64,000 bases of DNA from Deltaproteobacteria bacterium (GTDB lineage Bacteria > Myxococcota > Kuafuiibacteriia > Kuafuiibacteriales > Kuafuiibacteriaceae). Below the pieces are notes generated by a model. The model saw nothing but the letters and a program-made list of their open reading frames with translations. It ran no database searches and was not told the DNA's origin. Where the stretch lies: the NCBI GenBank assembly GCA_016703535.1, contig JADJBV010000001.1:6382270-6446269 (forward strand), in the 5' to 3' direction. Positions 26,668 through 39,940 of this stretch are shown one piece after another; position 1 is the stretch's first letter; every line of letters starts with the position of its first letter. The position numbers and the translations under genes were made by a program.

Positions 26668-27969
26668 CTATGGCCGAGCAGGCGCCCAGGCGAGGCCGTA
26701 AGGCAGGGCACCGTGGACCCCAAAGGCCGCCCGCACCCGCTGGTTGCCGTCCAAAAACAGGACCCGGTGGGCCTCGTCGAGCTCGGGCCACTCCATGCGT
26801 TCGAGCTGGTTGTCCAACACGTTCGGCGGAACGGCGTCGGTCCGAGCCCGGTTGCGTCGGTGGTAGTCGGCGAGGTCCAGGTGAAAGACCACCAAGGTGA
26901 CCAAAGTGCCGTAGTCGAAGCCCAAACCAGCGACCCGGGTCCGGAAGTCCTGGCGCAAGCTGGTGGCGTCCCACACCACCGGCCGTTGTTTTCGCAAGCT
27001 GGCTTTCAATCGCTCTCTGCCTTCGGCGAGGACCCGATCGTTGGCGCCCTGATCACCTCGGTCCGAGCCGAGTTCTTCCCGCAGATCGTCGAGAGAGAGG
27101 TGATCGAAGCCGGCCAGGTGTTTTTGCGCGAAGGTGGTCTTGCCCGAGCCGCTGGGGCCAACGGTGATCACCAGATCCGAACGGGCCTCTCGGGCCTGAA
27201 AACTCCGGGCCACCGCCTCTTCTAGGCTGTGGATCTCACCCCGCTCTAAGCTGCGCCGGGCCTCGGACAGCGCAAAATCGATCACTTGATCGCCGTGACC
27301 CGCGAGGGACTCCACCAGCCGCGCCCGCCAGCTCGGGTCCTGCTCGCCGTGCCGAACGAACGCGCCGTAGTCTTCGGCGAAGAGCCGATACAGATCGATC
27401 TTCTCGATGGCCTCGGCCCGATCCCGGCAGGTCCGGCCCCGCATGTCCGCCTGCTCGACCCAATAGAGGAGCTCCGGATCGGCCAGGCGGCTGACCCGCT
27501 GATAGGCCCCGGCGCTCCGCTCCTTCACCACCAAAAACTTGGGCTCGTGGTGATGGCCGACCAAACCCAACAACACCTCCAGGGACGGATACGGCAACTC
27601 CTCCAACAACCGCGGCGCCAAATAGGAACGCCCCGCGGCCTCGTGACCCCGGGCGACGATGCGCTCCACCCCCTTCAGCTCCTGGGGTCGGGTGCAGATC
27701 GGCTTGGCGATGTCGTGGAGCAGGGCCCCCAACACCAAGAGCAATCGGCCCTCCCCTTCCAGGTGGGCGGCCGGCCCCGCGAGGAGTTGGTAGGCCTCGT
27801 CCATCACCATCTGGGTGTGGATGTGCACGTCGCCTTCGGCGTGCCACTCCGGATCTTGCGGCGTCTCTCGAAAGCGCCGCAACAACGGCAGCCGATCGCC
27901 CAGGGCCTCGACGCACTCGTCGAGGTTCGGAGACGCACCCCGACGAATCTCATCAAAGAAGGTCTTCAT
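26668..27969 (-). CDS. HD-Pnk-type RNA/DNA end-healing enzyme (N-terminal HD phosphoesterase + C-terminal P-loop polynucleotide kinase)
   Basis: The ORF track gives 26668..28059. ATG 27969 ('MKTFFDEIRRG') overlaps the RNA ligase stop (ATGA). HD motif 'LGALLHDIAKP' plus 'GHHHEPK'. Walker A 'ITVGPSGSGKTTFAQ' sits in the C-terminal third. Confidence 0.8.
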   Translation of the reverse strand: MKTFFDEIRRGASPNLDECVEALGDRLPLLRRFRETPQDPEWHAEGDVHIHTQMVMDEAYQLLAGPAAHLEGEGRLLLVLGALLHDIAKPICTRPQELKGVERIVARGHEAAGRSYLAPRLLEELPYPSLEVLLGLVGHHHEPKFLVVKERSAGAYQRVSRLADPELLYWVEQADMRGRTCRDRAEAIEKIDLYRLFAEDYGAFVRHGEQDPSWRARLVESLAGHGDQVIDFALSEARRSLERGEIHSLEEAVARSFQAREARSDLVITVGPSGSGKTTFAQKHLAGFDHLSLDDLREELGSDRGDQGANDRVLAEGRERLKASLRKQRPVVWDATSLRQDFRTRVAGLGFDYGTLVTLVVFHLDLADYHRRNRARTDAVPPNVLDNQLERMEWPELDEAHRVLFLDGNQRVRAAFGVHGALPYGLAWAPARP

Positions 27970-28610
27970 GACTTCTTCCCGGGTTCTCGCAGGCCGTTGG
28001 GCGTCACCACCCCGTGCATCCAATGATCGTCGGTCTGAACGTGACCGCGCCGCACCCACTTGGCCACGTGCTCCGAAAAGCGCGCGTACGGGAAGGCGCC
28101 GGCGCTGCGCACCACGTACCCTTCACAACGTTGGAGATCGAGCTTGAGGCTCCGGAGCCGGGCGTCGTCGTAGGGCCCTTCGTAGAGCGTCGGCACCAAC
28201 TCGAGGCCCAGCCGCATGGCCCAAGCCTTGGTCTCGGCCCACGACAAACAAGTGTTGGTCTCATCCCAGATCGAAAAGACAAAGAAGTAGCTGGCCAGAT
28301 CTTCGTACGCCACCGAATGCCGCGCGTAGAGATTTTCGCCGCAGACCCGAAACCCCGCCGGGATCTGGTAGCCGATCTCGCCCTGCAGCCGCTTCAGCCA
28401 ATCCCGGGACGGGTGGTGACGGCCATCCAGCGAGCGGGCGTGGAGCCCATCTTGGTAGAGGGTCGAGTTTTCGCCGTCGAGCTTTTCGGTGACCACCACC
28501 GGGGCCGACGACAAAGCCGCCGGGACCTCGGTGACCAGATCGTCGCTGCTGACCCCGGGAGACCAGGGCAGATGGGGCGTCCTAGGATACTTGAAGCGTT
28601 GGGTCGCCAT
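27966..28610 (-). CDS. ATP-dependent RNA ligase family protein
   Basis: The ORF track gives 27966..28643. The likely start is 'MATQRFKYPRTPHLPWSPG' at 28610. Covalent nucleotidyltransferase motif I is 'TEKLDGEN' (KxDG). Further motifs are 'VCGENLY', 'CEGYVVR' and 'VAKWVR'. Confidence 0.75.
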   Translation of the reverse strand: MATQRFKYPRTPHLPWSPGVSSDDLVTEVPAALSSAPVVVTEKLDGENSTLYQDGLHARSLDGRHHPSRDWLKRLQGEIGYQIPAGFRVCGENLYARHSVAYEDLASYFFVFSIWDETNTCLSWAETKAWAMRLGLELVPTLYEGPYDDARLRSLKLDLQRCEGYVVRSAGAFPYARFSEHVAKWVRRGHVQTDDHWMHGVVTPNGLREPGKKS

Positions 28611-28889
28611 GACCCACCTCCTTTGGCGGAGCCCAAGGCCCACGCCATCCCGCGATAGAGCATCGAGCGCAGAGCGGCTCGAAGGAACCGGGACCGAGGA
28701 GATTACATGGCGGAGGCTCGGAGAGATAAATAGGCTAAGCCAAGGCTCCGAAGGAGGTCAACCAGAGTTGCAGGACTTCAAGCTTCAGCGGACCAGAGAC
28801 CAACGACGACGATGGGATAGCAACCGGGTGGACCAGATCCGAGCGCTGGAAACGGCCAAACCCCCGCAGATCCCGGTGGCCACCAACAC

Positions 28890-29411
28890 CCGCCCTTCGA
28901 CCGGGCAAGGAGCCGCGCCTGCTGCCCGCGGAAGATGGCTTCCACGAAGACCCGCGCCATCGCCGCCAGGCCGTCTGCACGGACCGCCAACAACCCGACC
29001 AACTCCGAAGGCGGAGACAGAACGTACTGCCGAATCGGAACATCGGGGAACACACGCTCCACGAAGTGCGTCGCGACGTCGTCCATCCACCGCGCGCCGC
29101 AGCTCGGGCAGAGGCCGCGCCCTTTGGTCGCTCCGGCCATCCTGGCCTCTCGCGACACTTCCCGCGTCCTGTGGGTCGCACGAAAACGCCAGCGCCCGCT
29201 CCACTTGGCAGTCCGGGCAGCGCAGCCTGACGAAGCCCGCCTCGGGGACACCGCACACCAGGAACCGCTCCACTGCCCGGCCCACGAACTTGGGGATGGG
29301 GACCCCGGCCTCCTTGCTCTGCGCCACTAGCGCCGGCCACCAGCGCGTCACCAGTCGGTGCAGCACGCCCGAGCGCGGATCGCGAGCGGAGTAGCGCCGA
29401 GGACGATCCAC
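28890..29411 (-). mobile_element. IS91-family (rolling-circle Y2) transposase, 5' fragment only, frameshifted
   Basis: Two overlapping track ORFs (28785..29411 and 28778..29251) together read 'RYSARDPRSGVLHRLVTRWWPALV...FLVCGVPEAGFVRLRCPDCQVERALAFSC', then a frameshift, then 'KGRGLCPSCGARWMDDVATHFVERVFPDVPIRQYVLSPPSELVGLLAVRA...FRGQQARLLARSKGG'. This is the IS91 N-terminal zinc-binding domain. Family-like sequence stops at about 28890. Confidence 0.75.
28891..29039. repeat. Direct repeat copy 1 (~149 bp) shared by the two IS91 fragments
   Basis: Hand alignment: 'cgcccttcgaccgggcaaggagccgcgcctgctgcccgcggaagatggcttccacgaagacccgcgccatcgcc...caacaacccgaccaactccgaaggcggagacagaacgtactgccgaatcgga' against 39545..39692. 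They are near-identical except for about 15 substitutions and a 2-nt indel. Confidence 0.8.
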
Positions 29412-29803: not shown

Positions 29804-30148
29804 TTAGGGGACGAAGACCTCGACCCGATCGACCGCGCCGAAGGCCATCACCGAGGCTCCGCCCGGCACGTAGATCCGATCACCAATCGCCGCGGCGCCT
29901 GTCCCGTGCCGGCCGGTGGTCATCGGGCTCAAGCTTGACCACCGCTCGGTCTCAAAGCTCCAAGCCTCGACCGCGTCAAAGACCGCGCTGGCGGCGCCGG
30001 TGTTGCCTTCGCCGCCGAAGACGTAGAGCGCCTCGTTGAGGATCGCGGCGGCGGCGCCTCCTCGAGAGGTCGGCATCGGGGGCCCGGCGCTCCAGGTACC
30101 GGCGGTGGGATCGTAGAGGTCGAGCTGAGCGGTGTGCCCCGTGATGGG
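29804..30148 (-). pseudogene. Kelch-repeat protein gene, 3' fragment (5' end deleted at the island junction)
   Basis: Track ORF 29804..30076 reads 'LYVFGGEGNTGAASAVFDAVEAWSFETERWSSLSPMTTGRHGTGAAAIGDRIYVPGGAS'. Manual upstream extension keeps Kelch-like sequence ('GHTAQLDLYDPTAGTWSAGPPMPTSRGG') to about 30145, then 'FRRRPIT' and a stop. No start or N-terminal blades are present. Confidence 0.7.
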
Positions 30149-30217
30149 TCTCCTTCGGAAAAGGTTTCAAACACTTCGCCCGTGACATCGGCCGTCCGCC
30201 TCCTTGAAGTTGGGCTC

Positions 30218-31222
30218 ATGGATCTCAATCCGACTCGCCCCACTTTCGACTTCATCCCGATGGGGCCGGGCGCAGGCCCCTTGACGAGTCCCTCGACTTT
30301 CGACGACTCAAGAAGCATGTACATCGAAATGGTGCGGCAGGTCGTCGAGGAGGCGGTTGCTGTTCATGCGGCCGCGGAGAAGAAGACCATCTCCGATGTT
30401 CTGAAGGAAGTTCGCGAGCACATCGACGCAACAGCGAGGGAACATCAGAAGGACGAACCGGCAATCGACTATCAGAATGCGCTGTGTCGGCTTGGCTACC
30501 TCTACCGCCACGCTCCCGCAAACGCGACGTTGTTCGAGCGCGTCCTTCGTGATTGTCCAGACTTCCTGCTCAAGATTAAAGAACGCAACGGAGCGCGGTT
30601 GCACGTGTGCTCGGTTGGCGGGGGACCTGGCACCGAACTCCTTGGGCTCTCGAAGTTCTTACTCAGGCGGCCCGAGCTTGCGCCGAGCAAGATACAGTTC
30701 ACGGTGTTGGATCGGATCCCGCAATGGGCAGAGACCTGGCAGCGCCTGGCCGATGCCGTCGAGGACCAGTTCAAAAAAGCGCCGACGGGCGCCAAGCCGA
30801 GCATTGCTCCCTCGTTCCTGCCCATGGATGTGTGCGATCCGACCTCATACAAGAGCTACGCCTATCATTTCAGCACGGTCGACATTGTGGTCTTCAACTA
30901 CTTGTTCTCGGAGAACAAGACTCGCTTGGCGGCGGCAGCGGAAGCGGCCCGCCACTTGCTCAACTCCAGCCCGGTGGGTGCTTTGTTCCTATTCATCGAT
31001 CGCCACGAAGCAGACGGACAGCTCACAGAGGCCGTGAGAGCAATGATCCCGACGACTCCTCCTTGCACGGCCAACCTGTTTGGAGGGACGATCGATCGGG
31101 ACGAAGACCGGAAGGCGATGGGCGACATGTTGATGGGAGCTTTGGGCAACCCACGAGTGAAGTTCTTCACGGACAACTACCGTGACCCAACGGCTTTTTG
31201 GACGGCGATTCGGCGCACATGA
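30218..31222 (+). CDS. Class I SAM-dependent methyltransferase-like protein
   Basis: The ORF track gives 30134..31222. The start is placed at ATG 30218 ('MDLNPTRPTF'), just past the Kelch remnant. Motif I is 'LHVCSVGGGPGTELLGL', the post-I acidic residue is in 'FTVLDRI', and 'VDIVVFNYLFSE' follows. GC is lower and A/T-ending codons are more frequent than in the flanks. Confidence 0.65.
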   Translation: MDLNPTRPTFDFIPMGPGAGPLTSPSTFDDSRSMYIEMVRQVVEEAVAVHAAAEKKTISDVLKEVREHIDATAREHQKDEPAIDYQNALCRLGYLYRHAPANATLFERVLRDCPDFLLKIKERNGARLHVCSVGGGPGTELLGLSKFLLRRPELAPSKIQFTVLDRIPQWAETWQRLADAVEDQFKKAPTGAKPSIAPSFLPMDVCDPTSYKSYAYHFSTVDIVVFNYLFSENKTRLAAAAEAARHLLNSSPVGALFLFIDRHEADGQLTEAVRAMIPTTPPCTANLFGGTIDRDEDRKAMGDMLMGALGNPRVKFFTDNYRDPTAFWTAIRRT

Positions 31223-32142
31223 TCATCTCCGCCAGCTACAAGACTGACATCCCTGCGTTCTACGGAACGTGGTTTCGAAATCGCCTTCGTGCCGGGTTTT
31301 GCAAGACCGTCAATCCGCTCAATCGCGATCAGCACTCCACGATTTCACTGAAGCGGTCTGACGTCGAAAGCTACGTCTTCTGGACGAAGGGTCAGGGACC
31401 GTTCTTGCCGGTGCTCGATGAGCTGCATGAGGCTGGCTTCCCGTTCATCGTTCAGTACACGATAAACGGCTACCCTCGGGCTCTTGAAACGCGAGTTAGC
31501 GACTCGGATCGGGCCGTCGAACAAATGCAGGTGGTCTCACGTAGGTTCGGTCCCCGAGTAGCTGTCTGGCGCTACGACACCATCGTGCTCTCGTCATTGA
31601 CCGATTTCGCATTCCATCGAAGGAACTTCGAACGGCTTGCTGAAGCTCTCTCCGGAACAACGGACGAAGTCGTCGTCTCGTTTCTTCAGCTCTACCAGAA
31701 GACGAAGCGCAATCTCGACGAAGCCGGACGCGTGGAAGCGTTTGAATGGTGGGATCCAACGGTGGAAGAGAAGAGGGACCTGCTTTCTGCCCTGGCGCAG
31801 ATCGCTGCTTCAAATCGAATGCGACTCACCATTTGCACGCAACCGGACCTTGTCGTGGCCGGTGTCGGGGAGTCTCGCTGCATTGACGGTGAGCGCCTGA
31901 TGGACTTGGCCGGTGGACGATTCCCGGCGAAGGTCAAAGGCATGCGGGAGGGCTGCGGCTGCTACGAGTCGAAGGACATCGGCGACTACGACACGTGCCC
32001 ACATGGATGTGTCTACTGCTACGCCGTTCGCGATCGAGACCTCGCGCTGAATCGGTTTAAGGCTCACGATCCGGAAGGCGAGTACCTGTTTCCCGTTCAG
32101 CCCCCGAAGCCGGCGAGGCAGCTGCGGTTGTTCGGAGAGTAG
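31219..32142 (+). CDS. DUF1848-family protein (C-terminal Cys cluster, putative Fe-S)
   Basis: ATG 31219 ('MIISASYKTDIPAFYGTWFRNRL', the typical DUF1848 opening) overlaps the methyltransferase stop (ATGA). The C-terminal cluster is 'EGCGCYESKDIGDYDTCPHGCVYCYA'. Confidence 0.7.
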   Translation: MIISASYKTDIPAFYGTWFRNRLRAGFCKTVNPLNRDQHSTISLKRSDVESYVFWTKGQGPFLPVLDELHEAGFPFIVQYTINGYPRALETRVSDSDRAVEQMQVVSRRFGPRVAVWRYDTIVLSSLTDFAFHRRNFERLAEALSGTTDEVVVSFLQLYQKTKRNLDEAGRVEAFEWWDPTVEEKRDLLSALAQIAASNRMRLTICTQPDLVVAGVGESRCIDGERLMDLAGGRFPAKVKGMREGCGCYESKDIGDYDTCPHGCVYCYAVRDRDLALNRFKAHDPEGEYLFPVQPPKPARQLRLFGE

Positions 32143-32670: not shown

Positions 32671-33726
32671 CTAAAGCGGACAGGTCGTCCCGCACCGAGA
32701 GCAGCCGGCCGTCTGCTTTCCGTCTACACAGGTTCGGTGTTCTGCTCGCCACTGCACAGCGGCCTCATCGGCCGCCGTCTCGTCTAGATTGTGCAGGTCA
32801 ATAATGTGGGCAGCGACCCGGGCCGCGCGAACCGCCTCCAGCGTGGATTCGAGGCTCGGGATGCCTCCTGTATGCTCCTCGCGCGTCACGGCCGCAAGCA
32901 CGTGGGCTGCTCCGTGAACACCCATCAGAGTGGCGCCGATAGCGGCCGACACATGGTCCTGTCCGTCCGCCGCGTCGGTAGGAATGGGGCCCAAGGGCAT
33001 GACTGGGAAGCCAGCAGGAGCTAGGATCGAAGCCACTCTCAGGATGTCCCGCGGTCGAGCATGACCAGGTGACTCAACAATCACGCTTGTTCCGCTTCGC
33101 ACGAGCTGTGAAGCGAGGTCCAACTGGGCCGCGATCTCTCCTAGTTGCGCTTCATCCAGCGAGTCAAAGATGTTCGCCGAGCGAAAGGACGCCCCGAGGC
33201 TCAGCGTCACGCCCCGGCGAGCTGCCTCCTCTGCCAGCTTCGGCATGATGTCCTGGTAAGCGTTGCCTCCGTCTCCGCGAAGTAGGAGGTCGTTGATGAC
33301 CAATCCGCCCCCTCGGGAAGTCCACGGAACACGTCGCCGACGCGCTAGGCGAACCAGCTCACGAGTCGGGGTCGGATGAATCGTCAGGAGGCCGGCACCT
33401 CGTTCCATCTGCTCGATGGCTCTATTGAGTAAGGCAGAACGATCAATCTGGCCCGATGTCGAGACAGCGGAATACACGGGCAACGTCGCGGCGACAAAGC
33501 CATATGAAACTATGCACTCCAGGAGCGGTTCGTTCGACGCAACAATCGATAGATCGGATACGATATCGGGACCGACTTCCATCTGTGCAAGCGCGTCAAT
33601 TTTTGCTCGCTGGGATCCGAAGTCGCGAATGTGGCTAGAGCCGACCAGGGCCATCACTGACGTTCGAATCCCAGGACCTACCGCGACGCTCGGGAGCGCT
33701 CGCCGCCCTAGCAAGGCAACAGTCAT
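32671..33726 (-). CDS. Minimal ThiC-like radical-SAM enzyme (HMP-P synthase/BzaF superfamily), 351 aa
   Basis: ATG 33726 ('MTVALLGRR') overlaps the stop of the SIR2-SLOG gene (ATGA). ThiC-core motifs occur in order: 'ATLPVYSA', 'GAGLLTIHPT', 'VPWTSRGGG', 'VTLSLGASFRSA', 'VIVESPGHARP', 'PVMPLGPIPTDAADGQDHVSAAIGATL' and 'LAAVTREEHTGGIP'. The C-terminal cluster 'CSRCGTTC' is CX2CX3C, against CX2CX4C in canonical ThiC. Confidence 0.8.
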   Translation of the reverse strand: MTVALLGRRALPSVAVGPGIRTSVMALVGSSHIRDFGSQRAKIDALAQMEVGPDIVSDLSIVASNEPLLECIVSYGFVAATLPVYSAVSTSGQIDRSALLNRAIEQMERGAGLLTIHPTPTRELVRLARRRRVPWTSRGGGLVINDLLLRGDGGNAYQDIMPKLAEEAARRGVTLSLGASFRSANIFDSLDEAQLGEIAAQLDLASQLVRSGTSVIVESPGHARPRDILRVASILAPAGFPVMPLGPIPTDAADGQDHVSAAIGATLMGVHGAAHVLAAVTREEHTGGIPSLESTLEAVRAARVAAHIIDLHNLDETAADEAAVQWRAEHRTCVDGKQTAGCSRCGTTCPL

Positions 33727-35096
33727 TTGAGGCTCGCTTCCACGCACCGAACCACGTCGGCAGCGCTGACACGGCCACTTCTCGCCTTTTCTAAGTAGGC
33801 TGGATCGATTTTCTGGAGCAGCCCGGCTACGCCCGGCTCATCGAGTTGCAGCGCGGCCAGACCCTTGCGTTGGATTGGCACAGGAACGATTTGGCACCGA
33901 TGGGCGCGCGCAACCTCCAGTTCCGCGGCCGTGCCCATGCCTCCATCAAACACAACCATCGTCCTGGCGGCGGCAAAGAGGCCTCCACGGTATCGCTTGA
34001 GATCGTCGAGGAGTGACCTGTCGTTTGAAAATGCAGGCCTTATTGCATAAGGATTCGGAAAAATCCTAATGCGCTGACGCAGGTCGGTTTGTCTTCGAAG
34101 GCAAGCATCGCCGAAAGCGTTGACGGCATGGCGGCCAATACCCTCGGACTGGCCGTCCAGAAGCACAATCGCCGGATCGATTTCGGAGAGCTTTGCTCCC
34201 ACCAGTGCCGCAAGGTCAGTCGCACGACGAGCAGCCTTATGCCCACCACTTACGAACACGGCCCGGTCCCGAGCTCGGAGGGCTAGATTGTCGAATACGT
34301 GCTGGATTTCATCGTATCCTTGGACGATCGCACAACGAATTCCAACCCGCATGAGATCCTCGGTCCAGAGTGCCTGGCGCTTCGCGTCTTCAGCACTGCT
34401 GGCTACCTTAAGCAGCATAAAATGTTCGCGAGTCGCGCGTTTGGCCAACCTCCTTGCTTGAACCAGCGCGGTTGAGATGCTGGAATCCCGATAGCCATAG
34501 CCAGCAAACAGGAAAGTTTTGTGGAGCAAGTCGTGCTGGAGGCGCTGCACAAAACTGGGCCGACGAGCCGCAAATTCCTCATAGTCGTCGGTCGTGATGA
34601 TGAGGTCGTTGGGCGAGCTTCGCTCGATGCATCCATGCACCTTCAGTATTTCAAAGTCATCAGCGAGGACATCCTGCGTAAAGTCTTGATCGTCAATCCG
34701 CACGACAACCCTCCGGTGTGCCATCGAGTCCTCAAGAAGACGATCGAAATTTGTGGTCCAGACGGTATCAATCGGAGTGAGCCGCAGGGCGGCGTGGTAG
34801 GAGTTTGGAAGAAGTCCGCGATTTAGCTTCGCTCTAAATGCCGCGACCAGGGGACCACGATTGCCCTTGTCGGCATTTACCAAATGCTGTGCGATCAACG
34901 GTAAGTCGTCGGTCTCCTTCAGGTCCAACCCGATCCGCCTCGCGTGCGGCTTCAATAGACCAAGCCAACTTGGCGCATTCGACTTGGCGGATATCCCGGA
35001 TCCCAAAAAGTACGCGCCCACACCGGCCGCGATTGCCTGAGCCATCCCATCAACCACGTAGGAGAGATCGACTCCAACCGACTTTGGTTCAGCCAT
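33723..35096 (-). CDS. ThsA-type SIR2-SLOG protein (Thoeris effector-like NADase architecture)
   Basis: The ORF track gives 33723..35132. ATG 35096 has a GGGAGA Shine-Dalgarno-like element about 10 nt upstream. SIR2_2-type motifs are 'AYFLGSGISAKSNAPSWLGLL', 'VWTTNFDRLLE' (catalytic Asn position) and 'EILKVHGC' (catalytic His position). The C-terminal SLOG/LOG-like Rossmann shows 'AVFVSGGHKAARR' and 'MVVFDGGMGTAAELEVA' (GGxGTxxE). Confidence 0.8.
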   Translation of the reverse strand: MAEPKSVGVDLSYVVDGMAQAIAAGVGAYFLGSGISAKSNAPSWLGLLKPHARRIGLDLKETDDLPLIAQHLVNADKGNRGPLVAAFRAKLNRGLLPNSYHAALRLTPIDTVWTTNFDRLLEDSMAHRRVVVRIDDQDFTQDVLADDFEILKVHGCIERSSPNDLIITTDDYEEFAARRPSFVQRLQHDLLHKTFLFAGYGYRDSSISTALVQARRLAKRATREHFMLLKVASSAEDAKRQALWTEDLMRVGIRCAIVQGYDEIQHVFDNLALRARDRAVFVSGGHKAARRATDLAALVGAKLSEIDPAIVLLDGQSEGIGRHAVNAFGDACLRRQTDLRQRIRIFPNPYAIRPAFSNDRSLLDDLKRYRGGLFAAARTMVVFDGGMGTAAELEVARAHRCQIVPVPIQRKGLAALQLDEPGVAGLLQKIDPAYLEKARSGRVSAADVVRCVEASLK

Positions 35097-35216
35097 TCCG
35101 TTTCGTCTCCCTCGCTGTTTGCGCCGGCTCATTGAACGTGACCGCCGTCTCCGTCCGCCCCATGCCTCTTCTGTTCAAACAGGCGCGACGAAATCTTAAA
35201 AGCAAGCGGTCACACA

Positions 35217-36050
35217 TCAAGTCGCAGTGCCAAAAAGCCCCAGTTGTTTCTCGGGAGGAATCGGGAGGACGCCGACGATCACCCACGGGTTGGGAGCGAC
35301 GAAATGGAACTGCTGCGTTGTTCCGAGGAAAAAGTGGAGATCGGTCTGCAGGAACTCGTCGAAGTACTTCTTGTGCACCTTGGCCAAGGCCGTTGGCTCG
35401 TCACCATTTGCGCGCCTGAGGCAGTTCCAGTAGAGCGCCCCTGCCTCCCAATCGAGCACTTGAAGATCGCTCTGCCGCCCTGCAGCGTCTTCGAACCGGT
35501 ACGTGAAACTATAGGGCAGCTTGTCGATGACCTTGAATGTCTCGCGCCAAGTGTTGTCCGCAAAGAGGTCATACTGCTTTGTCGCCTCGCGCATCTGCTT
35601 GACCCGCTCGGGGTCCCAAACACGCTCTTCGACTTCGGAGTAGAAATCCAGAATCTTTGATGGCCTGAACACTGCGAGTGACGCCGTGTTCGCTTTCGCA
35701 CTTGCGATCAAATCGTCTAAACGGTCGTAGACGCGAGCGGTTTCCAACAGGATACGCCTCCGTGCACCCCAATTGTTGCTAGTGTCGATGTGATCGACCG
35801 CGATCAGCTCGTGCTCATCAATTGGACGGAAGGTCTCCGGTCTCGGGTCGGATGGATTGCGAGCAAGGCGACACTCGAGCCAATCATACTTGTGGTACTG
35901 CTCTTTCTGATCCAGGCGCCGGAACGGAACCGGGTAGATGCGGACCCACGACCCATCTTCGCGGACTCCAGCAGTGCACACGGTCTCCCCGTACTTCCGG
36001 GACAGCGTTGGGTAGGTCTTGACCGTGATCAGGACACGCTCTTTGTTCAT
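35217..36050 (-). CDS. Hypothetical protein, 277 aa (no family recognised)
   Basis: Clean ORF with non-repetitive, balanced composition ('MNKERVLITVKTYPTLSRKYGETVCTAGVREDGSWVRIYPVPF...'). A GAGG sits 4-7 nt upstream of the ATG, inside the end of the preceding gene. The gap to the DUF488 gene is 6 nt. Confidence 0.65.
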   Translation of the reverse strand: MNKERVLITVKTYPTLSRKYGETVCTAGVREDGSWVRIYPVPFRRLDQKEQYHKYDWLECRLARNPSDPRPETFRPIDEHELIAVDHIDTSNNWGARRRILLETARVYDRLDDLIASAKANTASLAVFRPSKILDFYSEVEERVWDPERVKQMREATKQYDLFADNTWRETFKVIDKLPYSFTYRFEDAAGRQSDLQVLDWEAGALYWNCLRRANGDEPTALAKVHKKYFDEFLQTDLHFFLGTTQQFHFVAPNPWVIVGVLPIPPEKQLGLFGTAT

Positions 36051-36056
36051 CTCGCC

Positions 36057-36989
36057 TCAAAGGTCCGTCGCGTGAAGGTCCTTTCCGAATTGTCGTTCCA
36101 GCGCCTCGGCGACGCAATGTCGGTGACACTGGGCCGGTAGGTGTTCGTAGCAAGTAAGGGCGACGCGGTCACCCGCACGGAACCAATCGCGCAGCTTCTT
36201 CAGGGCGCTGGTCTGCTTCGGTAACCAGTCGCGCACATACTCCCTGAAGAGCGCGTCGTAATCGGCTTGGGTATCAAGACTCTGGCGCTTCTCGGACGCG
36301 ATGCCGAGTTCGGGAAGGTGCTCGTAGCGAATCCCGACCGCGTCGCAACCTCGTGCGAGGCTGTTCTTGGAGAAGCCATATTTGCGGCTGATCGGGTTGC
36401 GGCGGACATCGCACAAAATCGTGGTGCCGTTCTTCAGGAGGAGGTTGAGGTAGGTATCAAGCGAATGACCTTCGTAGCCAATCGTCTGAACTGACGCCCG
36501 TTTTTGATCGACTCGAAGGGCAGCTATCTGCTTGAGCGCTATCGCGTCCCCTTTCAGGACGCGGGCAGCGATCTCACTTCGGGTGGCGAAGTACGGAAAT
36601 CTCCGATACGTGTCGGCAACGAGCTCGTCACCTCGCAATTTTTGGTATCGACGCGCAAACGCCGCCATCTGCATGTCGATCGTGCGACCGATGACGCCGC
36701 GGCCTTCGTCAGTGAGCTGCCAGGTGCTCTCGTCGTTCACTAGCAGGCCGCGCTCAACGAGCTTTCGTCGATCGGCGTACGACATGAACGAGAAGGCTCC
36801 GAACTTGTGCGGGACAAAGTCGTAGGGCGCTTCGGACGGGGACTCTTGGCAGTACAGGAAGAGCAGCTTTTGGAAGTCCAGCTTGCTCGCTTGGCCACCG
36901 AGAGCGTCGAGCAGCTGCAAGAGCTGCCGCTGACGAGCGGGCAGCGTCGTCGCGGTCTTCTCCAATGGTCGGGCCCGAGCAGCGGTCAT
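36057..36989 (-). CDS. Two-domain protein: N-terminal helical/wHTH-like domain + C-terminal DUF488 (YeaO-like) domain
   Basis: The ORF track gives 36057..37304. The start is placed at ATG 36989 ('MTAARARPLEK'). The DUF488 part reads 'VQTIGYEGHSLDTYLNLLLKNGTTILCDVRRNPISRKYGFSK...IRYEHLPELG...VALTCYEHLPAQCHRHCVAEAL'. The N-terminal part reads 'KLDFQKLLFLYCQE...YDFVPHKFGAFSF...LVERGLLVNDESTWQLTDEG'. Confidence 0.7.
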   Translation of the reverse strand: MTAARARPLEKTATTLPARQRQLLQLLDALGGQASKLDFQKLLFLYCQESPSEAPYDFVPHKFGAFSFMSYADRRKLVERGLLVNDESTWQLTDEGRGVIGRTIDMQMAAFARRYQKLRGDELVADTYRRFPYFATRSEIAARVLKGDAIALKQIAALRVDQKRASVQTIGYEGHSLDTYLNLLLKNGTTILCDVRRNPISRKYGFSKNSLARGCDAVGIRYEHLPELGIASEKRQSLDTQADYDALFREYVRDWLPKQTSALKKLRDWFRAGDRVALTCYEHLPAQCHRHCVAEALERQFGKDLHATDL

Positions 36990-37150
36990 CAACGTTTCCC
37001 TTGGCGCTTGAGTTTGGGGGAAGCGGTGCGAGATGCTCGGCGATCTCGGGCATCTCGGTCGACCCTCACCCTGCCGAACCCTACCAGCGCGATCCGCTGG
37101 AAACAACTGGGCAATCGAGACGGGAGACACAGGCCAAGCTTCGATCGCAA

Positions 37151-37804
37151 TCAATCTGCAGCGTGAGGCGGTGGGTTCGCAGCGACTTGCCGGTGCTGTG
37201 CCTCGCGGATGCTCACCAGGCTCCGCCGGATGCAGGCGACCTCGCGCTCCCGGACGATTCGCGTCAGTTCGTCCGCGCGGTCGGGAAACTGTTGCGCTAT
37301 CCAAACAGCCCCATTCTCCCAGGCCCCGAGCTCCCGTGCCAGATCGATGGGAGCCGTGCGCACCGCTTCCCGTAGGTCGACGAAGCTTGCAGCAAGGTCT
37401 GGATGAACTCGTTCAAGCTCAGACCAGGCGGCGTCAAAGGTCCGCGCGCCTTGATGTGCCGGCTTGAATCCTTGAAGGAGGTGGCCAAACTCGTGGAGCA
37501 GGTCCGCGATGATCTCCTGTGCACCTGAGGGCGGGGCGGCGTGAAGGTAGATCTTGCTCTGGTCCCACGACACCTTGCTCGTGGCACGAGGGTCCTTGAA
37601 AGGCCGCATCGACCAAACTTGTGCTCGCCAGCTCCGAGGATCCCAGATTCCAGCTGCCGCAAGCTCCGCGTCGCTGACATCCGCAGATTTCCGTTCTCCG
37701 ACGACTTCGATTTCACGTTGGAGGGTGGTTAGCTCAGCCTCGAAGCGCTGGAGGTCGGGGACGTTCTCGAACAGCCTGTTTCGAATCTCGGCGGACGTGG
37801 CCAT
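37151..37804 (-). CDS. Hypothetical protein with HExxH zinc-metallopeptidase-like motif
   Basis: 217 aa. 'IIADLLHEFGHLLQG' contains HEFGH. No signal peptide is present. Its GC is closer to the host than the rest of the island. Confidence 0.5.
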   Translation of the reverse strand: MATSAEIRNRLFENVPDLQRFEAELTTLQREIEVVGERKSADVSDAELAAAGIWDPRSWRAQVWSMRPFKDPRATSKVSWDQSKIYLHAAPPSGAQEIIADLLHEFGHLLQGFKPAHQGARTFDAAWSELERVHPDLAASFVDLREAVRTAPIDLARELGAWENGAVWIAQQFPDRADELTRIVREREVACIRRSLVSIREAQHRQVAANPPPHAAD

Positions 37805-37871: not shown

Positions 37872-38438
37872 TCACCTGCAAGCGCGAGCGGTAGCTGGTT
37901 CCTTGAGAAGATCGTCGCGCCGCTGCTTGGCGATCGGCGTCCATTTCGCCAAAAAGCCGGGTAGGTCTTCGTCAAGAAGGACATCAATGCCGACTGAGGA
38001 TGCTCCAATCCCGGCCAACTCGTTCGTGACGCGCGCTGACGCCGAATTTAAAGCCGCTCGCTTGGTTGAGTTCATCTTCGTGACAGTCTTTCCCCACGGT
38101 TCTCCGTTCGGTCCGACCTGGAACAACACAGTCGCCAACACTGGAGCGCCGAGTCGCGCCATGACCGACAGGCTAGCCGCGTCTTTCACAAGACTCGTCG
38201 TCACACCAACCCCTTCAACCTCGAATGCGGCAACCGGGATCCACAACGGAGATTCGGCAGTCGCGCCTCTCAACGCCCAGATCACGTCAATCGCGTAGTT
38301 CCTATCAGTCCCGAACACGTTGAACTCAGGGACGGCATGAAGGTCAAGGTCGACGCCTGCCTGGCAGAGTCGAGCGCAAACCTCGTGCTTCGACATCGCA
38401 AGTTCGCTCAATCCCGCATGTTGACCGAGCGCGTTCAT
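37872..38438 (-). CDS. Hypothetical protein, 188 aa, possible PD-(D/E)xK nuclease-like core
   Basis: Only the 3' 188 codons of track ORF 37872..39263 look protein-like ('MNALGQHAGLSELAMSKHEV...YAIDVIWALRG...PVAAFEVEGVGVTTSLVKD...'). The upstream part of the ORF is Arg/Pro/Ser junk overlapping the IS91 fragment. The D...E-x-E pattern is only suggestive. Confidence 0.45.
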   Translation of the reverse strand: MNALGQHAGLSELAMSKHEVCARLCQAGVDLDLHAVPEFNVFGTDRNYAIDVIWALRGATAESPLWIPVAAFEVEGVGVTTSLVKDAASLSVMARLGAPVLATVLFQVGPNGEPWGKTVTKMNSTKRAALNSASARVTNELAGIGASSVGIDVLLDEDLPGFLAKWTPIAKQRRDDLLKEPATARACR

Positions 38439-38715
38439 CGCTAATGAAGGAGAGCATCCCTCGACCGGTGCAGAGGAAGCAACGGGCCAGAGGCTGGGGC
38501 GAATAGGAAACTCAAGGGTGGTTGCCGGGGCCACCTCCGCTTGGATCGAGCCGCCATATAGGGATACCTCCCCTGGATGGCAGGACCTACTTGAACGCCG
38601 GTGAGGGGTCGAATGGGGGTCTGTGGTGGGGTTGAGGGGCGCTTCCTGGGGCGCAGGACGAGCCTCGGCCTCGCGAGGATGCTCGCCTTCAAGGCCCGGG
38701 GCGGAGCTGTGGTGC

Positions 38716-39692
38716 TCAGTTCGCGAGTGGGAGAGCTTGTTGCGGCCCGGGCGGGCCGGTGCTCTCCACCGGCACGAACTGGTTTCGACGCAAGGTCCTG
38801 GGGCAGCGGGGGCAGGAATGGCCGTTGACCTCGTAGACGCGGGCCAAGAGCTTCGCCCACGCTTCGCGATACGGCACTGGCGTTGCCGGCTCGAACTTCC
38901 GAGCCCCGAACCACGCGCCTTGCACCGCCACCCAGCCTGCTGGCACCACCTGCGGTCGAAGCCGCGCGGCCGGCGCCAGCACCCCGAAGGCGCGGATCTG
39001 ATGCTGCCGCGGGGGAGGCACCAGCCAGGCCAGGCGCCGGAGCAACGAGAGCGGATGCAGCAGCAGCTCCTGCTGCGTGGTGCGCGTCGGGCGGCGGAGC
39101 GTGAACCGCGCCTGCGCCTCGTCGATGAGCTCGAGCTGGGCCTCCGCGAACGGCGGCCGGGCGGCGTAGCGCACGAGCTGGGCGCGACCGGCGCGGTCGT
39201 CGGCGCCGACCCGCACGCTCGCGTTGACCTCGAAGCGACCTCGGAGCTTCTTCGGCTCCACACTGACGATCCCTACGGCGCACGGGCCGCCGTTGGCCAC
39301 CACGGGTCGTCGGGCCGGCCCTCGGCGCCCTCCTCGAGATACCCATGGCGACGCAGCCACCCCAAAAACCGAAGCTCCACCTCGTCCTCGAGGGCCCCAC
39401 GCTCTCCGGCCGAGGGGCCTTGGTCCTGGCGGAATTCTAGCGTGCCGACGTCCTCCTCCAAGTAGCCGCCGTCGAGCACCCGCACGTGCAGGTGCGGATA
39501 GACCGAAAGCGTCTTCGTGAACCGCTGCACGAACGCCACCGCCCCGCCCTTCGACCGGGCAAGGGGCCGCGCTGCTGCCCGCGGAAGATGGCTTCTACGA
39601 AGACCCGCGCCATCGCCTCCTGGGCGTCGGCACGGGCCGCCAACAACCCGACCAACTCCGAAGGCGGCGACAGAACGTACTACCGAATCGGA
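38716..39692 (-). mobile_element. IS91-family transposase, 3' fragment (catalytic/C-terminal part), multiply frameshifted and lacking the N-terminal zinc-binding domain
   Basis: The pieces from track ORFs 39437..39655, 39273..39743 and 38716..39360 read 'LVGLLAARADAQEAMARVFVEAIFRGQQ', 'ARSKGGAVAFVQRFTKTLSVYPHLHVRVLDGGY...' and 'VRYAARPPFAEAQLELIDE...LLHPLSLLRRLAWLVPPPRQHQIRAFGVLAPAA...WAKLLARVYEVNGHSCPRCP...'. At 39692 the fragment is fused to an unrelated 54-codon ORF start (39693-39852, 'MSKTKRIKRDRPPV...'). Confidence 0.75.
39545..39692. repeat. Direct repeat copy 2 (~148 bp) matching 28891..29039
   Basis: See copy 1. Same orientation, roughly 90 percent identity by hand alignment. Confidence 0.8.
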
Positions 39693-39940
39693 GGTAGGCG
39701 TCGATCTCGCCCGCCAGATCCTGGAGCGATCGGCAGGTGCCACGGCGGAGCAGCCGGTCGAGGTGAAAGACGCCGTCCATCAGGCGTCGCCTGCCGGCGA
39801 CTCGGGCGGATACCGGGGGGCGGTCCCGCTTGATTCGCTTCGTCTTGCTCACGCCAAGCTCCCAGCCATCCCTTGGGGGAAGCTCTTGTCATGAGACCCT
39901 GGGGCAGGAGCAATGTCGGGAACCCAGTTCGGTGGCCGAG

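What the first reader, a model, noticed from the sequence alone, without database searches (positions are those of the whole stretch)
35217..37804. Uncharacterised three-gene string (HExxH protein, wHTH-DUF488, 277-aa unknown) directly upstream of the SIR2-SLOG gene
Seen in sequence:
- All three genes are co-oriented with the SIR2-SLOG/ThiC-like pair.
- The DUF488 gene and the 277-aa gene are 6 nt apart, with a GAGG ribosome-binding site embedded in the upstream gene end.
- The DUF488 protein carries an extra ~170-aa N-terminal domain. Its 'FQKLLFLYCQE...YDFVPHKFGAFSF...' pattern and C-terminal winged-helix-like 'LVERGLLVNDESTWQLTDEG' recall, from memory only, phage-associated antitoxin or DNA-binding modules.
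- The 277-aa protein matches nothing I recognise.

Inference: these genes may be sensor or regulator components of the downstream effector pair, or a separate two-gene system. Either way the combination is not a named system to my knowledge.
Basis: partly seen in the sequence, partly recalled or inferred. Interest (0 to 1): 0.5.

Follow-up and report, generated by a model that had tools for sequence, protein, structure and literature searches.

The report
Two-gene DUF488 and OB-fold defence candidate
Two of the three genes form a tightly linked, very widespread and highly conserved pair (a phosphatase-like DUF488 enzyme fused to an antitoxin-like domain, plus an OB-fold protein) that a defence-system database already lists as an untested anti-phage candidate, while the third gene and the neighbouring SIR2 gene pair are unrelated to it.

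Summary
The three ORFs, their shared orientation, the 6-nt junction with GAGG and the extra N-terminal domain on the DUF488 protein are all real. They are not a three-gene unit.

- **The pair.** The DUF488 fusion (A, 36057-36989) and the 277-aa protein (B, 35217-36050) are full-length matches to PADLOC candidate PDC-M19A/B. That candidate comes from a set of 145 that its authors call untested.
- **Linkage.** In 79 of 80 genomes from more than a dozen phyla, A lies directly upstream of B, 3-25 nt apart. B is 64-82% identical across these genomes.
- **Not linked.** The HExxH ORF has no homologue anywhere (0/80 loci). The ThiC-like gene is also at 0/80, and SIR2 gives one weak hit.
- **Distant relatives.** More remote B homologues on plasmids and in seven Gordonia phages also sit beside a DUF488 gene, in varying orientation.

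Best reading: this is an autonomous conflict module with toxin-antitoxin-like wiring that acts on nucleic-acid ends. Its function has not been tested. It is a new member of a catalogued candidate family, of moderate interest.

The parts
36057..36989 (-). Gene A (310 aa): antitoxin-like winged-helix domain fused to DUF488; PADLOC PDC-M19A
   Evidence: PADLOC PDLC04505, 7.3e-100, profile positions 3-289 of 294. Pfam DUF488 at 1.5e-27, and DUF488-N3a at 28.9 bits against a cut-off of 27. phrog_14939 at 7e-49. The start at 36989 is supported by homologue lengths and codon-position GC. The AF2 model has pLDDT 84.
36495..36989 (-). A, N-terminal domain (about residues 1-165): winged helix plus helical extension, DarG C-terminal-domain-like
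36060..36494 (-). A, C-terminal DUF488 domain (about residues 166-310), PTP/dual-specificity-phosphatase-like fold
36051..36059 (-). A/B junction: TGA stop, 6-nt spacer, with GAGG (36058-36055) overlapping the stop codon
   Evidence: Read directly from the sequence. The same tight junction, 3-25 nt with median 7, is found in 77 of 77 measurable loci.
35217..36050 (-). Gene B (277 aa): OB-fold protein, PADLOC PDC-M19B
37151..37804 (-). HExxH ORF (217 aa): adjacent orphan gene, not part of the module
   Evidence: The only match among 5.8e9 proteins is itself. It is absent from all 80 related loci and from all plasmids. There is no Pfam or PADLOC hit. Codon-position GC of 0.72/0.48/0.68 looks coding.

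Best explanation
Genes A and B form an autonomous, horizontally mobile two-gene conflict module. It is the PADLOC candidate PDC-M19. It is independent of the HExxH ORF and of the ThsA-like/ThiC-like pair next to it.

Proposed mechanism; every step of it is inferred:
- B is a nucleic-acid-binding subunit, most likely for single-stranded DNA or DNA ends. It has an N-terminal OB fold and possibly a second one.
- A is its obligate partner. A's DUF488 domain is a cysteine-dependent enzyme of the rhodanese/PTP-phosphatase type. It would act on a phosphate attached to a sugar at a nucleic-acid terminus or on a nucleotide-derived adduct.
- A's N-terminal domain has the fold that DarG uses to clamp its toxin DarT. 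It would dock A onto B and keep the complex silent.
- Foreign DNA from a phage or plasmid would compete for B's binding groove and release the activity. The result would be processed ends that block replication or ligation of the invader.

What is shown: the obligatory linkage of the two genes, the domain folds, the intact catalytic motif, and the setting among defence genes and mobile elements.

What is inferred: the substrate, the A-B contact, the trigger, and the anti-phage phenotype.
For: **Linkage**
- A lies directly upstream of B in 79 of 80 genome loci from Myxococcota, Chloroflexota, Acidobacteriota, Planctomycetota, Verrucomicrobiota, Gemmatimonadota, Armatimonadota, Spirochaetota, Actinomycetota and others. 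The 80th locus is cut at a contig end.
- The A-stop to B-start gap is 3-25 nt.
- No third gene recurs in the neighbourhood; the largest neighbour cluster covers 7 of 80 loci and is syntenic housekeeping.

**Distant B homologues (28-35% identity)**
- They still sit next to a DUF488 gene on plasmids pYS1, pRL8, Arthrobacter plasmid 3, and plasmids of Streptomyces canus, Sulfitobacter and Calothrix.
- The same holds in seven Gordonia phages. Those seven are the only phages out of 50,697 records that match A's DUF488 domain.
- Orientation varies, and so does the N-terminal module on the DUF488 protein: none, an XRE-type HTH, or the DarG-like winged helix.

**Folds**
- B matches OB-fold ssDNA binders.

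**Defence context**
- Both genes are full-length PADLOC PDC-M19 matches. PDC candidates were selected because instances are embedded in BREX, DISARM or type I RM systems.
- Immediate neighbours in other genomes include BrxA (3 loci), DarG (2), type I methyltransferase (2), DrmD and DpdE.
- In this window the pair sits in a low-GC island (0.56-0.62 against about 0.67) together with ThsA-like and DUF1848 genes, flanked by IS91-like fragments.
- In the Gordonia phages the pair lies in the lysogeny-control region beside the repressor and integrase.
Against: - No experiment exists. The authors of the PDC set call these candidates untested, and no paper in the library names PDC-M19.
- B has no recognisable catalytic domain. 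Its model is mediocre (pLDDT 65.6), and the highly conserved C-terminal 35 residues are unmodelled.
- The similarity to DarG's C-terminal domain is at fold level only: no Pfam hit, and hhalign E 0.29.
- Many distant relatives lack that domain entirely, so it cannot be essential to the core function.
- B is 64-82% identical across phyla, which is atypical for fast-evolving immune genes.
- Some plasmid copies sit among leading-region or establishment genes such as ssb, radC and DUF932. This fits a service to the mobile element as well as it fits defence.
- No close relative was found in IMG/VR contigs.
Confidence: 0.45

Rival explanations
1. The pair is a toxin-antitoxin or addiction module with DarTG-like logic. 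B is a toxin that binds or modifies DNA. A is a dual antidote: its DarG-like N-terminal domain sequesters B, and its DUF488 domain enzymatically reverses B's product. Any defence would come from abortive infection, or the module may simply stabilise mobile elements.
For: - The gene order is antitoxin-like first, with a 3-25 nt coupled junction.
- A's N-terminal domain has the fold of DarG's toxin-neutralising domain. One paper states that this domain is homologous to the DUF4065 antitoxin family.
- The DUF488 partner carries interchangeable DNA-binding heads, XRE HTH or winged helix, as antitoxins often do.
- The pair occurs on conjugative plasmids and in prophage immunity regions.
- B's invariant acidic and basic residues (D68, R70, E72, D200) look more catalytic than purely DNA-binding.
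Against: - B matches no toxin or enzyme family.
- A comparison with the OB-fold nuclease SNase is not significant.
- Many relatives have a bare DUF488 protein transcribed convergently from B, which is unusual for type II toxin-antitoxin pairs.
- No conserved operator-like inverted repeat lies upstream of A: mean best repeat 8.2 nt against 7.7 nt in shuffles.
Confidence: 0.25
2. The pair is not immunity at all. It is a DNA-end or ssDNA processing module that mobile elements carry for their own establishment, repair or integration. B would bind incoming single-stranded DNA and DUF488 would trim or repair its termini.
For: - B is of the OB-fold ssDNA-binder type.
- The Sulfitobacter plasmid copy lies between DUF932/radC and ssb genes, and the pRL8 copy lies near a toprim/DUF3991 primase-like gene.
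- Tyrosine recombinase/integrase genes lie near the pair on pYS1 and in the Gordonia phages, and next to the B homologue on Sulfolobus pSOG2.
- Very high sequence conservation across phyla fits a housekeeping-like activity on a universal substrate.
Against: - Most of the 80 chromosomal loci show no plasmid or phage backbone around the pair.
- Several copies are embedded among BREX, type I RM, DISARM-like or DarG genes.
- PADLOC selected the family because of such embedding.
- Both genes are dispensable and patchily distributed, with 305 hits among 185,579 species genomes.
Confidence: 0.18
3. This is the first reader's main idea: the three genes are sensor or regulator components of the downstream SIR2-SLOG (ThsA-like)/ThiC-like effector pair and form one five-gene system.
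For: All five genes are co-oriented. Only 84 nt separate B from the ThsA-like gene, and the scan predicts no terminator between them.
Against: - Co-occurrence in 80 A-B loci: ThiC-like 0, HExxH 0, SIR2 1 weak hit.
- The ThsA-like/ThiC-like pair recurs on its own in all three informative metagenome loci, without A or B.
- The HExxH ORF has no homologue at all.
Confidence: 0.02

Closest known systems
PADLOC-DB candidate system PDC-M19 (Payne et al. 2024 bioRxiv, 'guilt-by-embedding' candidates)
   Same: Both proteins are near full-length matches to the PDC-M19A and PDC-M19B models (7e-100 and 1e-108), and the genes are adjacent. This is the same family.
   Different: Nothing differs structurally. 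PDC-M19 is only a catalogue entry, one of 145 candidates that the authors call untested, so the name carries no mechanism.
DarTG toxin-antitoxin / defence system
   Different: There is no DarT ADP-ribosyltransferase and no macrodomain. The enzyme is DUF488 (PTP-like) and lies C-terminal, not N-terminal. The partner is an OB-fold protein. Sequence similarity to DarG is not significant.
Panacea / DUF4065 (PanA, SocA-like) antitoxin domain
   Same: A paper in the library states that DUF4065 proteins are homologous to the DarG C-terminal domain. A's motif, LDFQKLLFLY...YDFVPHKFGAFSF, resembles that class.
   Different: No Pfam DUF4065 hit appears even at E<=1. The relation is indirect, through the DarG structure.
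[quoted passage not shown]
   Same: A's C-terminal domain is a clear DUF488 and passes the DUF488-N3a cut-off. It has the PTP-like fold. B is OB-fold, and two distant homologues give weak DuOB hits. As I recall the abstract, that paper predicts DNA-end processing in virus-host conflict for enzymes of this clade.
   Different: B itself does not hit DuOB. Only 2 of 89 family members do, and both fall below the cut-off. I could not read the paper to check whether this exact pairing is described.
Thoeris (ThsA/ThsB)
   Same: The only connection is the neighbouring gene, which is ThsA-like (SIR2-SLOG; PADLOC ThsA 5.5e-66).
   Different: A and B are not Thoeris components and do not co-occur with ThsA elsewhere.

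Membership tests
PADLOC PDC-M19 (candidate defence system) | A protein matching a PDC-M19A model | tested here: met
   PDLC04505 at 7.3e-100, covering profile positions 3-289 of 294.
PADLOC PDC-M19 (candidate defence system) | A protein matching a PDC-M19B model, encoded next to the A gene | tested here: met
   PDLC04508 at 1.1e-108, positions 1-268 of 269. The genes are 6 nt apart.
PADLOC PDC-M19 (candidate defence system) | Anti-phage activity | not testable with these tools
   The source paper describes PDC systems as untested. No paper in the library mentions PDC-M19.
DUF488 (PF04343) / DUF488-N3a (PF22751) | HMM score above the curated cut-off | tested here: met
   PF04343 scores 97 bits against 22.2. 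PF22751 scores 28.9 bits against 27, a marginal pass.
DUF488 (PF04343) / DUF488-N3a (PF22751) | Intact conserved Cys...Cys-His-Arg loop (the 'active' form) | tested here: met
   C280, E282, C288, H289 and R290 are invariant in 42 homologues. A divergent A lineage keeps C-x-E...C-H-R.
PTP / dual-specificity phosphatases | PTP-like alpha/beta fold | tested here: met
PTP / dual-specificity phosphatases | Canonical C-X5-R phosphate-binding loop | tested here: not met
   The loop reads C280-YEHLPAQ-C288-H-R290, which is C-X9-R or C-X1-R.
DuOB, dual OB-containing domain (PF22557) | HMM score above the curated cut-off (27 bits) | tested here: not met
   The window protein gives no hit. Only 2 of 89 family members hit, at 18.6-18.7 bits.
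DuOB, dual OB-containing domain (PF22557) | Two tandem OB folds | tested here: inconclusive
DarTG | DarT ADP-ribosyltransferase toxin | tested here: not met
   Neither protein gives a DarT or ART hit in Pfam or PADLOC.
DarTG | DarG macrodomain | tested here: not met
   No macrodomain is present. The enzymatic domain is DUF488.
DarTG | DarG C-terminal toxin-binding domain | tested here: inconclusive
Panacea / DUF4065 antitoxins (PF13274) | HMM match to DUF4065 | tested here: not met
   The N-terminal 165 residues give no such hit at E<=1.
Type II toxin-antitoxin module | Toxicity of one partner, neutralised by direct binding of the other | not testable with these tools
   Only the coupled gene order and the fold resemblance are available.
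Thoeris accessory component | Conserved co-occurrence with ThsA | tested here: not met
   One weak SIR2 hit in 80 loci. The ThsA-like/ThiC-like loci lack A and B.

The most novel reading that the evidence does not exclude
The pair could be a mechanistically new kind of immune or toxin-antitoxin module. A PTP-fold DUF488 enzyme would carry out a previously undescribed cysteine-dependent reaction on DNA or RNA termini, or on a nucleotide adduct. It would be directed by an OB-fold partner and gated by a DarG/Panacea-type clamp domain that occupies that partner's nucleic-acid groove. The near-invariance of B across more than a dozen phyla would then reflect recognition of a universal nucleic-acid structure.
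Probability: 0.25. Interest if true: 0.65.

Novelty: new member of a known kind. Interest (0 to 1): 0.35.

Why it matters
DUF488 is a large family with no demonstrated activity. Here it is locked to a single partner, in an arrangement simple enough to test: two genes, about 1.8 kb.

If the pair defends against phages or plasmids, it would assign a first biological role and a likely substrate class (nucleic-acid termini) to DUF488. It would also extend the DarG/Panacea-type neutralising domain to a new enzyme class. The very high conservation makes any one homologue a good proxy for thousands of others.

For annotating this window, the practical result is this. The island at about 29.4-39.3 kb holds several independent modules: DUF1848 with a methyltransferase, ThsA-like with ThiC-like, and PDC-M19. 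It does not hold one five-gene system.

Tried and rejected
1. **HExxH as a third component.** It has no homologue. No homologous neighbour occurs in any of the 80 loci. Only one unrelated co-oriented ORF with an HExxH motif lies just upstream of A, out of 80 loci. Rejected.
2. **Link to ThsA/ThiC-like.** Rejected by co-occurrence in both directions.
3. **A recurrent third gene.** Clustering 681 flanking ORFs gave none.
4. **Autoregulatory operator.** An 11-nt inverted repeat lies 40-68 nt upstream of A in the window. Across 76 loci, upstream inverted repeats are no longer than in shuffled sequence, and there is no common motif. Not supported.
5. **B as an SNase-like OB-fold nuclease** (DPRPET against DTPET). 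hhalign gives probability 0.6%. Rejected.
6. **Internal duplication in B.** hhalign of the two halves found nothing.
7. **Solved-structure relatives by sequence.** None was found for A or B.
8. **Sequence-level link of A's N-terminal domain to DarG.** The motif aligns but E is 0.29.
9. **Close relatives in IMG/VR viral contigs.** None.
10. **Gordonia phage gp44, annotated 'immunity repressor', as an A homologue.** It is not; it is an XRE HTH protein. The DUF488 gene there is gp42, annotated 'HipA toxin'.
11. **The 168-aa gene downstream of the B homologue on Sulfolobus pSOG2 as a DUF488.** Not supported.
12. **Literature.** No paper in the library mentions PDC-M19, COG5483 or PF04343. The key Burroughs & Aravind 2023 paper is not held. 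The exact-sequence look-up of the source contig found nothing.
Full report
**1. What is at the coordinates**

On the minus strand there are three co-oriented ORFs.
- A 217-aa ORF at 37151-37804 contains HEFGH.
- A DUF488 gene ends at 36057.
- A 277-aa gene lies at 35217-36050.

The DUF488 stop is TGA at 36059-36057. Six bases follow, then the ATG of the 277-aa gene at 36050. GAGG at 36058-36055 overlaps the stop codon.

The longest DUF488 ORF (415 aa, TTG at 37304) overlaps the HExxH gene and is not the real gene. Three results place the start at the ATG at 36989, giving 310 aa.
- The PADLOC profile aligns from residue 123 of that ORF.
- Homologues are 305-310 aa.
- The upstream extension has a non-coding GC pattern by codon position, 0.67/0.70/0.55, against 0.64/0.43/0.72 for the gene proper.

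This leaves 161 nt between the HExxH stop and the DUF488 start. Below I call the 310-aa protein A and the 277-aa protein B.

**2. What the database scans say**

- A has Pfam DUF488 in its C-terminal ~120 residues (1.5e-27). It just passes the 'Active DUF488-N3 subclade' model, 28.9 bits against a cut-off of 27. About 165 N-terminal residues remain unassigned.
- B has no Pfam family.
- In PADLOC-DB, A is PDC-M19A (7.3e-100) and B is PDC-M19B (1.1e-108). Both matches are nearly full length.
- Both proteins also match PHROG families of unknown function: phrog_14939 at 7e-49 and phrog_25907 at 2e-63.
- The PDC entries are 145 'phage defence candidates'. They were chosen because instances are embedded inside BREX, DISARM or type I RM systems, and their authors describe them as untested.
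- No paper in the library mentions PDC-M19.

So the combination is named, but only as a catalogue entry.

**3. Which genes belong together**

*Family sizes.* B has 5,821 relatives (90%-identity clusters) with E<=1e-3, and the best 120 are 73-100% identical to it. A has 4,644. An exhaustive HMMER search finds 2,216 clusters at 50% identity for B.

*Close relatives.* A scan of one genome per species found 305 B-encoding loci. The best 80 come from Myxococcota, Chloroflexota, Acidobacteriota, Planctomycetota, Verrucomicrobiota, Gemmatimonadota, Armatimonadota, Spirochaetota, Nitrospirota, Latescibacterota, Fibrobacterota, Actinomycetota and several proteobacterial classes. B identity in these loci is 64-82%.

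tblastn of all window proteins against these loci gave the following.
- A lies directly upstream of B on the same strand in 79 of 80 loci. The 80th is cut at the contig end.
- HExxH: 0 of 80.
- ThiC-like: 0 of 80.
- ThsA: 1 of 80, a weak 29% SIR2 hit.

The A-stop to B-start distance is 3-25 nt, median 7, in all 77 measurable loci. Clustering 681 flanking ORFs revealed no recurrent third gene.

*HExxH.* The HExxH protein matches only itself among 5.8 billion proteins and nothing on plasmids. Its codon-position GC looks coding. It is best described as an orphan gene that happens to lie next to the pair.

*The neighbouring pair.* Relatives of the ThiC-like gene in metagenomes carry a ThsA-like gene immediately upstream in all three informative loci, and none has A or B. 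The ThsA-like/ThiC-like pair and the A/B pair are therefore two independent modules.

**4. Distant relatives strengthen the link between B and DUF488**

B homologues at 28-35% identity occur in 23 plasmids, including Sulfolobus and Saccharolobus plasmids, and in seven related Gordonia phages.

A DUF488 gene sits next to the B homologue on all of the following.
- Burkholderia pYS1
- Rhizobium pRL8
- Arthrobacter FB24 plasmid 3
- A Streptomyces canus plasmid
- A Sulfitobacter plasmid
- A Calothrix plasmid

The arrangement is sometimes co-directional and often convergent with overlapping ends. The DUF488 protein is either bare (140-160 aa) or, in S. canus, fused to an XRE-type HTH.

In Gordonia phage Nymphadora the B homologue gp43 is convergent with gp42. 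gp42 is annotated 'HipA toxin' but is a DUF488 protein (1.2e-29). The pair lies between the repressor gp44 and the integrase. A's DUF488 domain finds exactly these seven phages, and no others, among 50,697 phage records.

The one exception I saw is Sulfolobus pSOG2, where the downstream gene is not recognisably DUF488.

The constant partnership is therefore B plus DUF488. The N-terminal domain on A is a lineage-specific addition.

**5. Structure-based assignment**

*Protein A.* The model is good, with pLDDT 84.
- I checked which part of DarG that chain is. A DarG-like protein that happens to be a neighbour in locus L080 matches 7yk3 with its residues 168-339, and matches macrodomain structures with residues 1-156. 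The hit is therefore to DarG's C-terminal, DarT-binding domain.
- A paper in the library states that this domain inhibits DarT and that DUF4065 proteins are homologous to it.
- At sequence level the relation is not significant. hhalign lines up A 22-67 with DarG-like 182-223, but E is 0.29, and there is no Pfam DUF4065 hit.
- C280, E282, C288, H289 and R290 are invariant. They lie on the loop between strand 276-279 and helix 289-301, the topological position of the PTP phosphate-binding loop. The spacing is not the canonical C-X5-R.

*Protein B.* The model is only moderate, with pLDDT 65.6, and the highly conserved C-terminal ~35 residues are not modelled.
- Longer alignments to tandem-OB proteins hint at a second OB fold: HIN domains over 101-117 residues and RADX over 155.
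- Two distant homologues give sub-threshold hits to Pfam DuOB, 'Dual OB-containing domain'. Only 2 of 89 diverse members do so, and no internal repeat is detectable.
- Invariant residues across 89 diverse members are R37, D68, R70, E72, D200 and W201.

**6. Context**

In the window the pair lies in a low-GC stretch (0.56-0.62 against about 0.65-0.70). That stretch also holds:
- a DUF1848 gene, matching the PADLOC DRT-associated model at 3e-43, together with a methyltransferase;
- the ThsA-like/ThiC-like pair.

The stretch is bracketed by IS91-like transposase fragments that share a 121-nt direct repeat at 28919-29039 and 39572-39692, 93% identical.

In other genomes the nearest neighbours of the pair include BrxA (3 loci), DarG (2), type I methyltransferase (2), DrmD/SNF2, DpdE and other PDC candidates. 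This fits a defence-island habit. However, some plasmid copies sit among ssb, radC and DUF932 genes, which fits a service to the element itself.

**7. Mechanism**

*Shown.*
- An obligatory two-gene unit.
- An apparently active PTP-fold enzyme.
- An OB-fold partner.
- A DarG-C-terminal-domain-like extra domain on A in this lineage.
- A setting among mobile elements and defence islands.

*Inferred (my best account, overall confidence about 0.45; the specific steps are much less certain).*
- B binds single-stranded nucleic acid or DNA ends.
- A's DUF488 domain acts on a sugar-linked phosphate at such termini or on a nucleotide adduct.
- A's N-terminal domain docks onto B, as DarG's domain docks onto DarT.
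- Foreign DNA releases the activity.

My recollection of Burroughs & Aravind 2023 is that it defines a RapZ-C-DUF488-DUF4326 clade and predicts DNA-end processing in virus-host conflicts for some of its members. I could not obtain the paper, so this is a lead, not a test.

*Rivals.*
- A DarTG-like toxin-antitoxin reading, with B as toxin and A as a dual antidote (0.25).
- A DNA-processing role for the mobile element, without immunity (0.18).

**8. Unexplained observations**

- B is 64-82% identical across more than a dozen phyla, which is unusually conserved for an immune gene.
- In three loci (L004, L015, L025) B is 73-77% identical to the window protein while A is only 34-36% identical, with the same architecture. 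Overall, A and B identities correlate only at r = 0.45. Two A lineages therefore serve one B lineage.

**9. Verdict**

- The three-gene grouping and the proposed link to the SIR2-SLOG gene are not supported.
- That system is already catalogued as PDC-M19 but is functionally untested.
- This instance is a typical new member of the family.
- Interest is moderate (0.35): a clean, testable handle on the unknown DUF488 family, but not a new kind of locus.

Noticed in passing
window 32671-35132 (- strand); loci L089-L091: The ThsA-like SIR2-SLOG gene (33723-35132; PADLOC ThsA 5.5e-66) overlaps by 25 nt a truncated ThiC-like radical-SAM gene (32671-33747; Pfam ThiC_Rad_SAM 1.8e-44, well below the ThiC equivalog cut-offs). 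There is no TIR ThsB. The same ThsA-like then ThiC-like adjacency recurs in all three informative metagenome loci, at 37-50% identity. This looks like a Thoeris-like pair in which a ThiC-like enzyme stands where ThsB would be. One text search for ThsA plus ThiC was mostly noise from word-start matching, and I opened none of its hits.
   Followed up: partly
window 30134-32142 (+ strand): A 362-aa putative SAM methyltransferase (Methyltransf_34, 6e-7) overlaps by 25 nt a DUF1848 gene (Pfam 1.5e-88). The DUF1848 gene also matches the PADLOC model 'RTasDUF1848 (DRT)' at 3e-43, yet no reverse transcriptase lies next to it. This may be another independent module of the island.
   Followed up: no
window 28919-29039 and 39572-39692; 28785-29411, 38716-39743: A 121-nt direct repeat, 93% identical and 10,653 nt apart, lies inside fragments of IS91-like transposase genes (Zn_Tnp_IS91, Y2_Tnp). 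The repeats bracket the low-GC region that holds all the candidate defence genes. This suggests the island was inserted or shuffled by IS91-type elements.
   Followed up: partly
window 26668-28643 (- strand): An RNA ligase gene (Pfam RNA_ligase, 4.5e-33) overlaps an HD-domain plus AAA_33 kinase gene. This looks like an RNA-repair pair just outside the island.
   Followed up: no
window 37872-38450 (- strand): A ~192-aa ORF ends 67 nt upstream of the HExxH ORF's ATG. It has no Pfam, PHROG or NCBIfam match. It lies at the 3' end of a longer, probably spurious 463-aa ORF. It could form an orphan pair with the HExxH gene.
   Followed up: no
L081 (Gordonia phage Nymphadora NC_031061.1) 5819-6271: Gene 42 is annotated 'HipA toxin' but is a DUF488 protein (Pfam 1.2e-29). 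In the other six related phage records the same gene is annotated 'hypothetical protein'.
   Followed up: yes
loci L004, L015, L025 against the other loci: B is 73-77% identical to the window protein in these loci, while the adjacent A is only 34-36% identical with the same two-domain architecture. Two divergent A lineages are paired with one B lineage.
   Followed up: partly
L080 294-1358: A full DarG-like gene (macrodomain plus C-terminal domain; PADLOC DarG 2.8e-134) lies 422 nt upstream of the A/B pair. DarG is an immediate neighbour in 2 of the roughly 40 loci scanned. This could be coincidence within defence islands or a real association.
   Followed up: no
L087 (Sulfitobacter plasmid NZ_CP136688.1) 289-4901: Here the DUF488/B pair sits between DUF932 and radC genes on one side and an ssb gene on the other. 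This resembles a conjugative-plasmid leading region and hints at a role during entry of single-stranded DNA.
   Followed up: no
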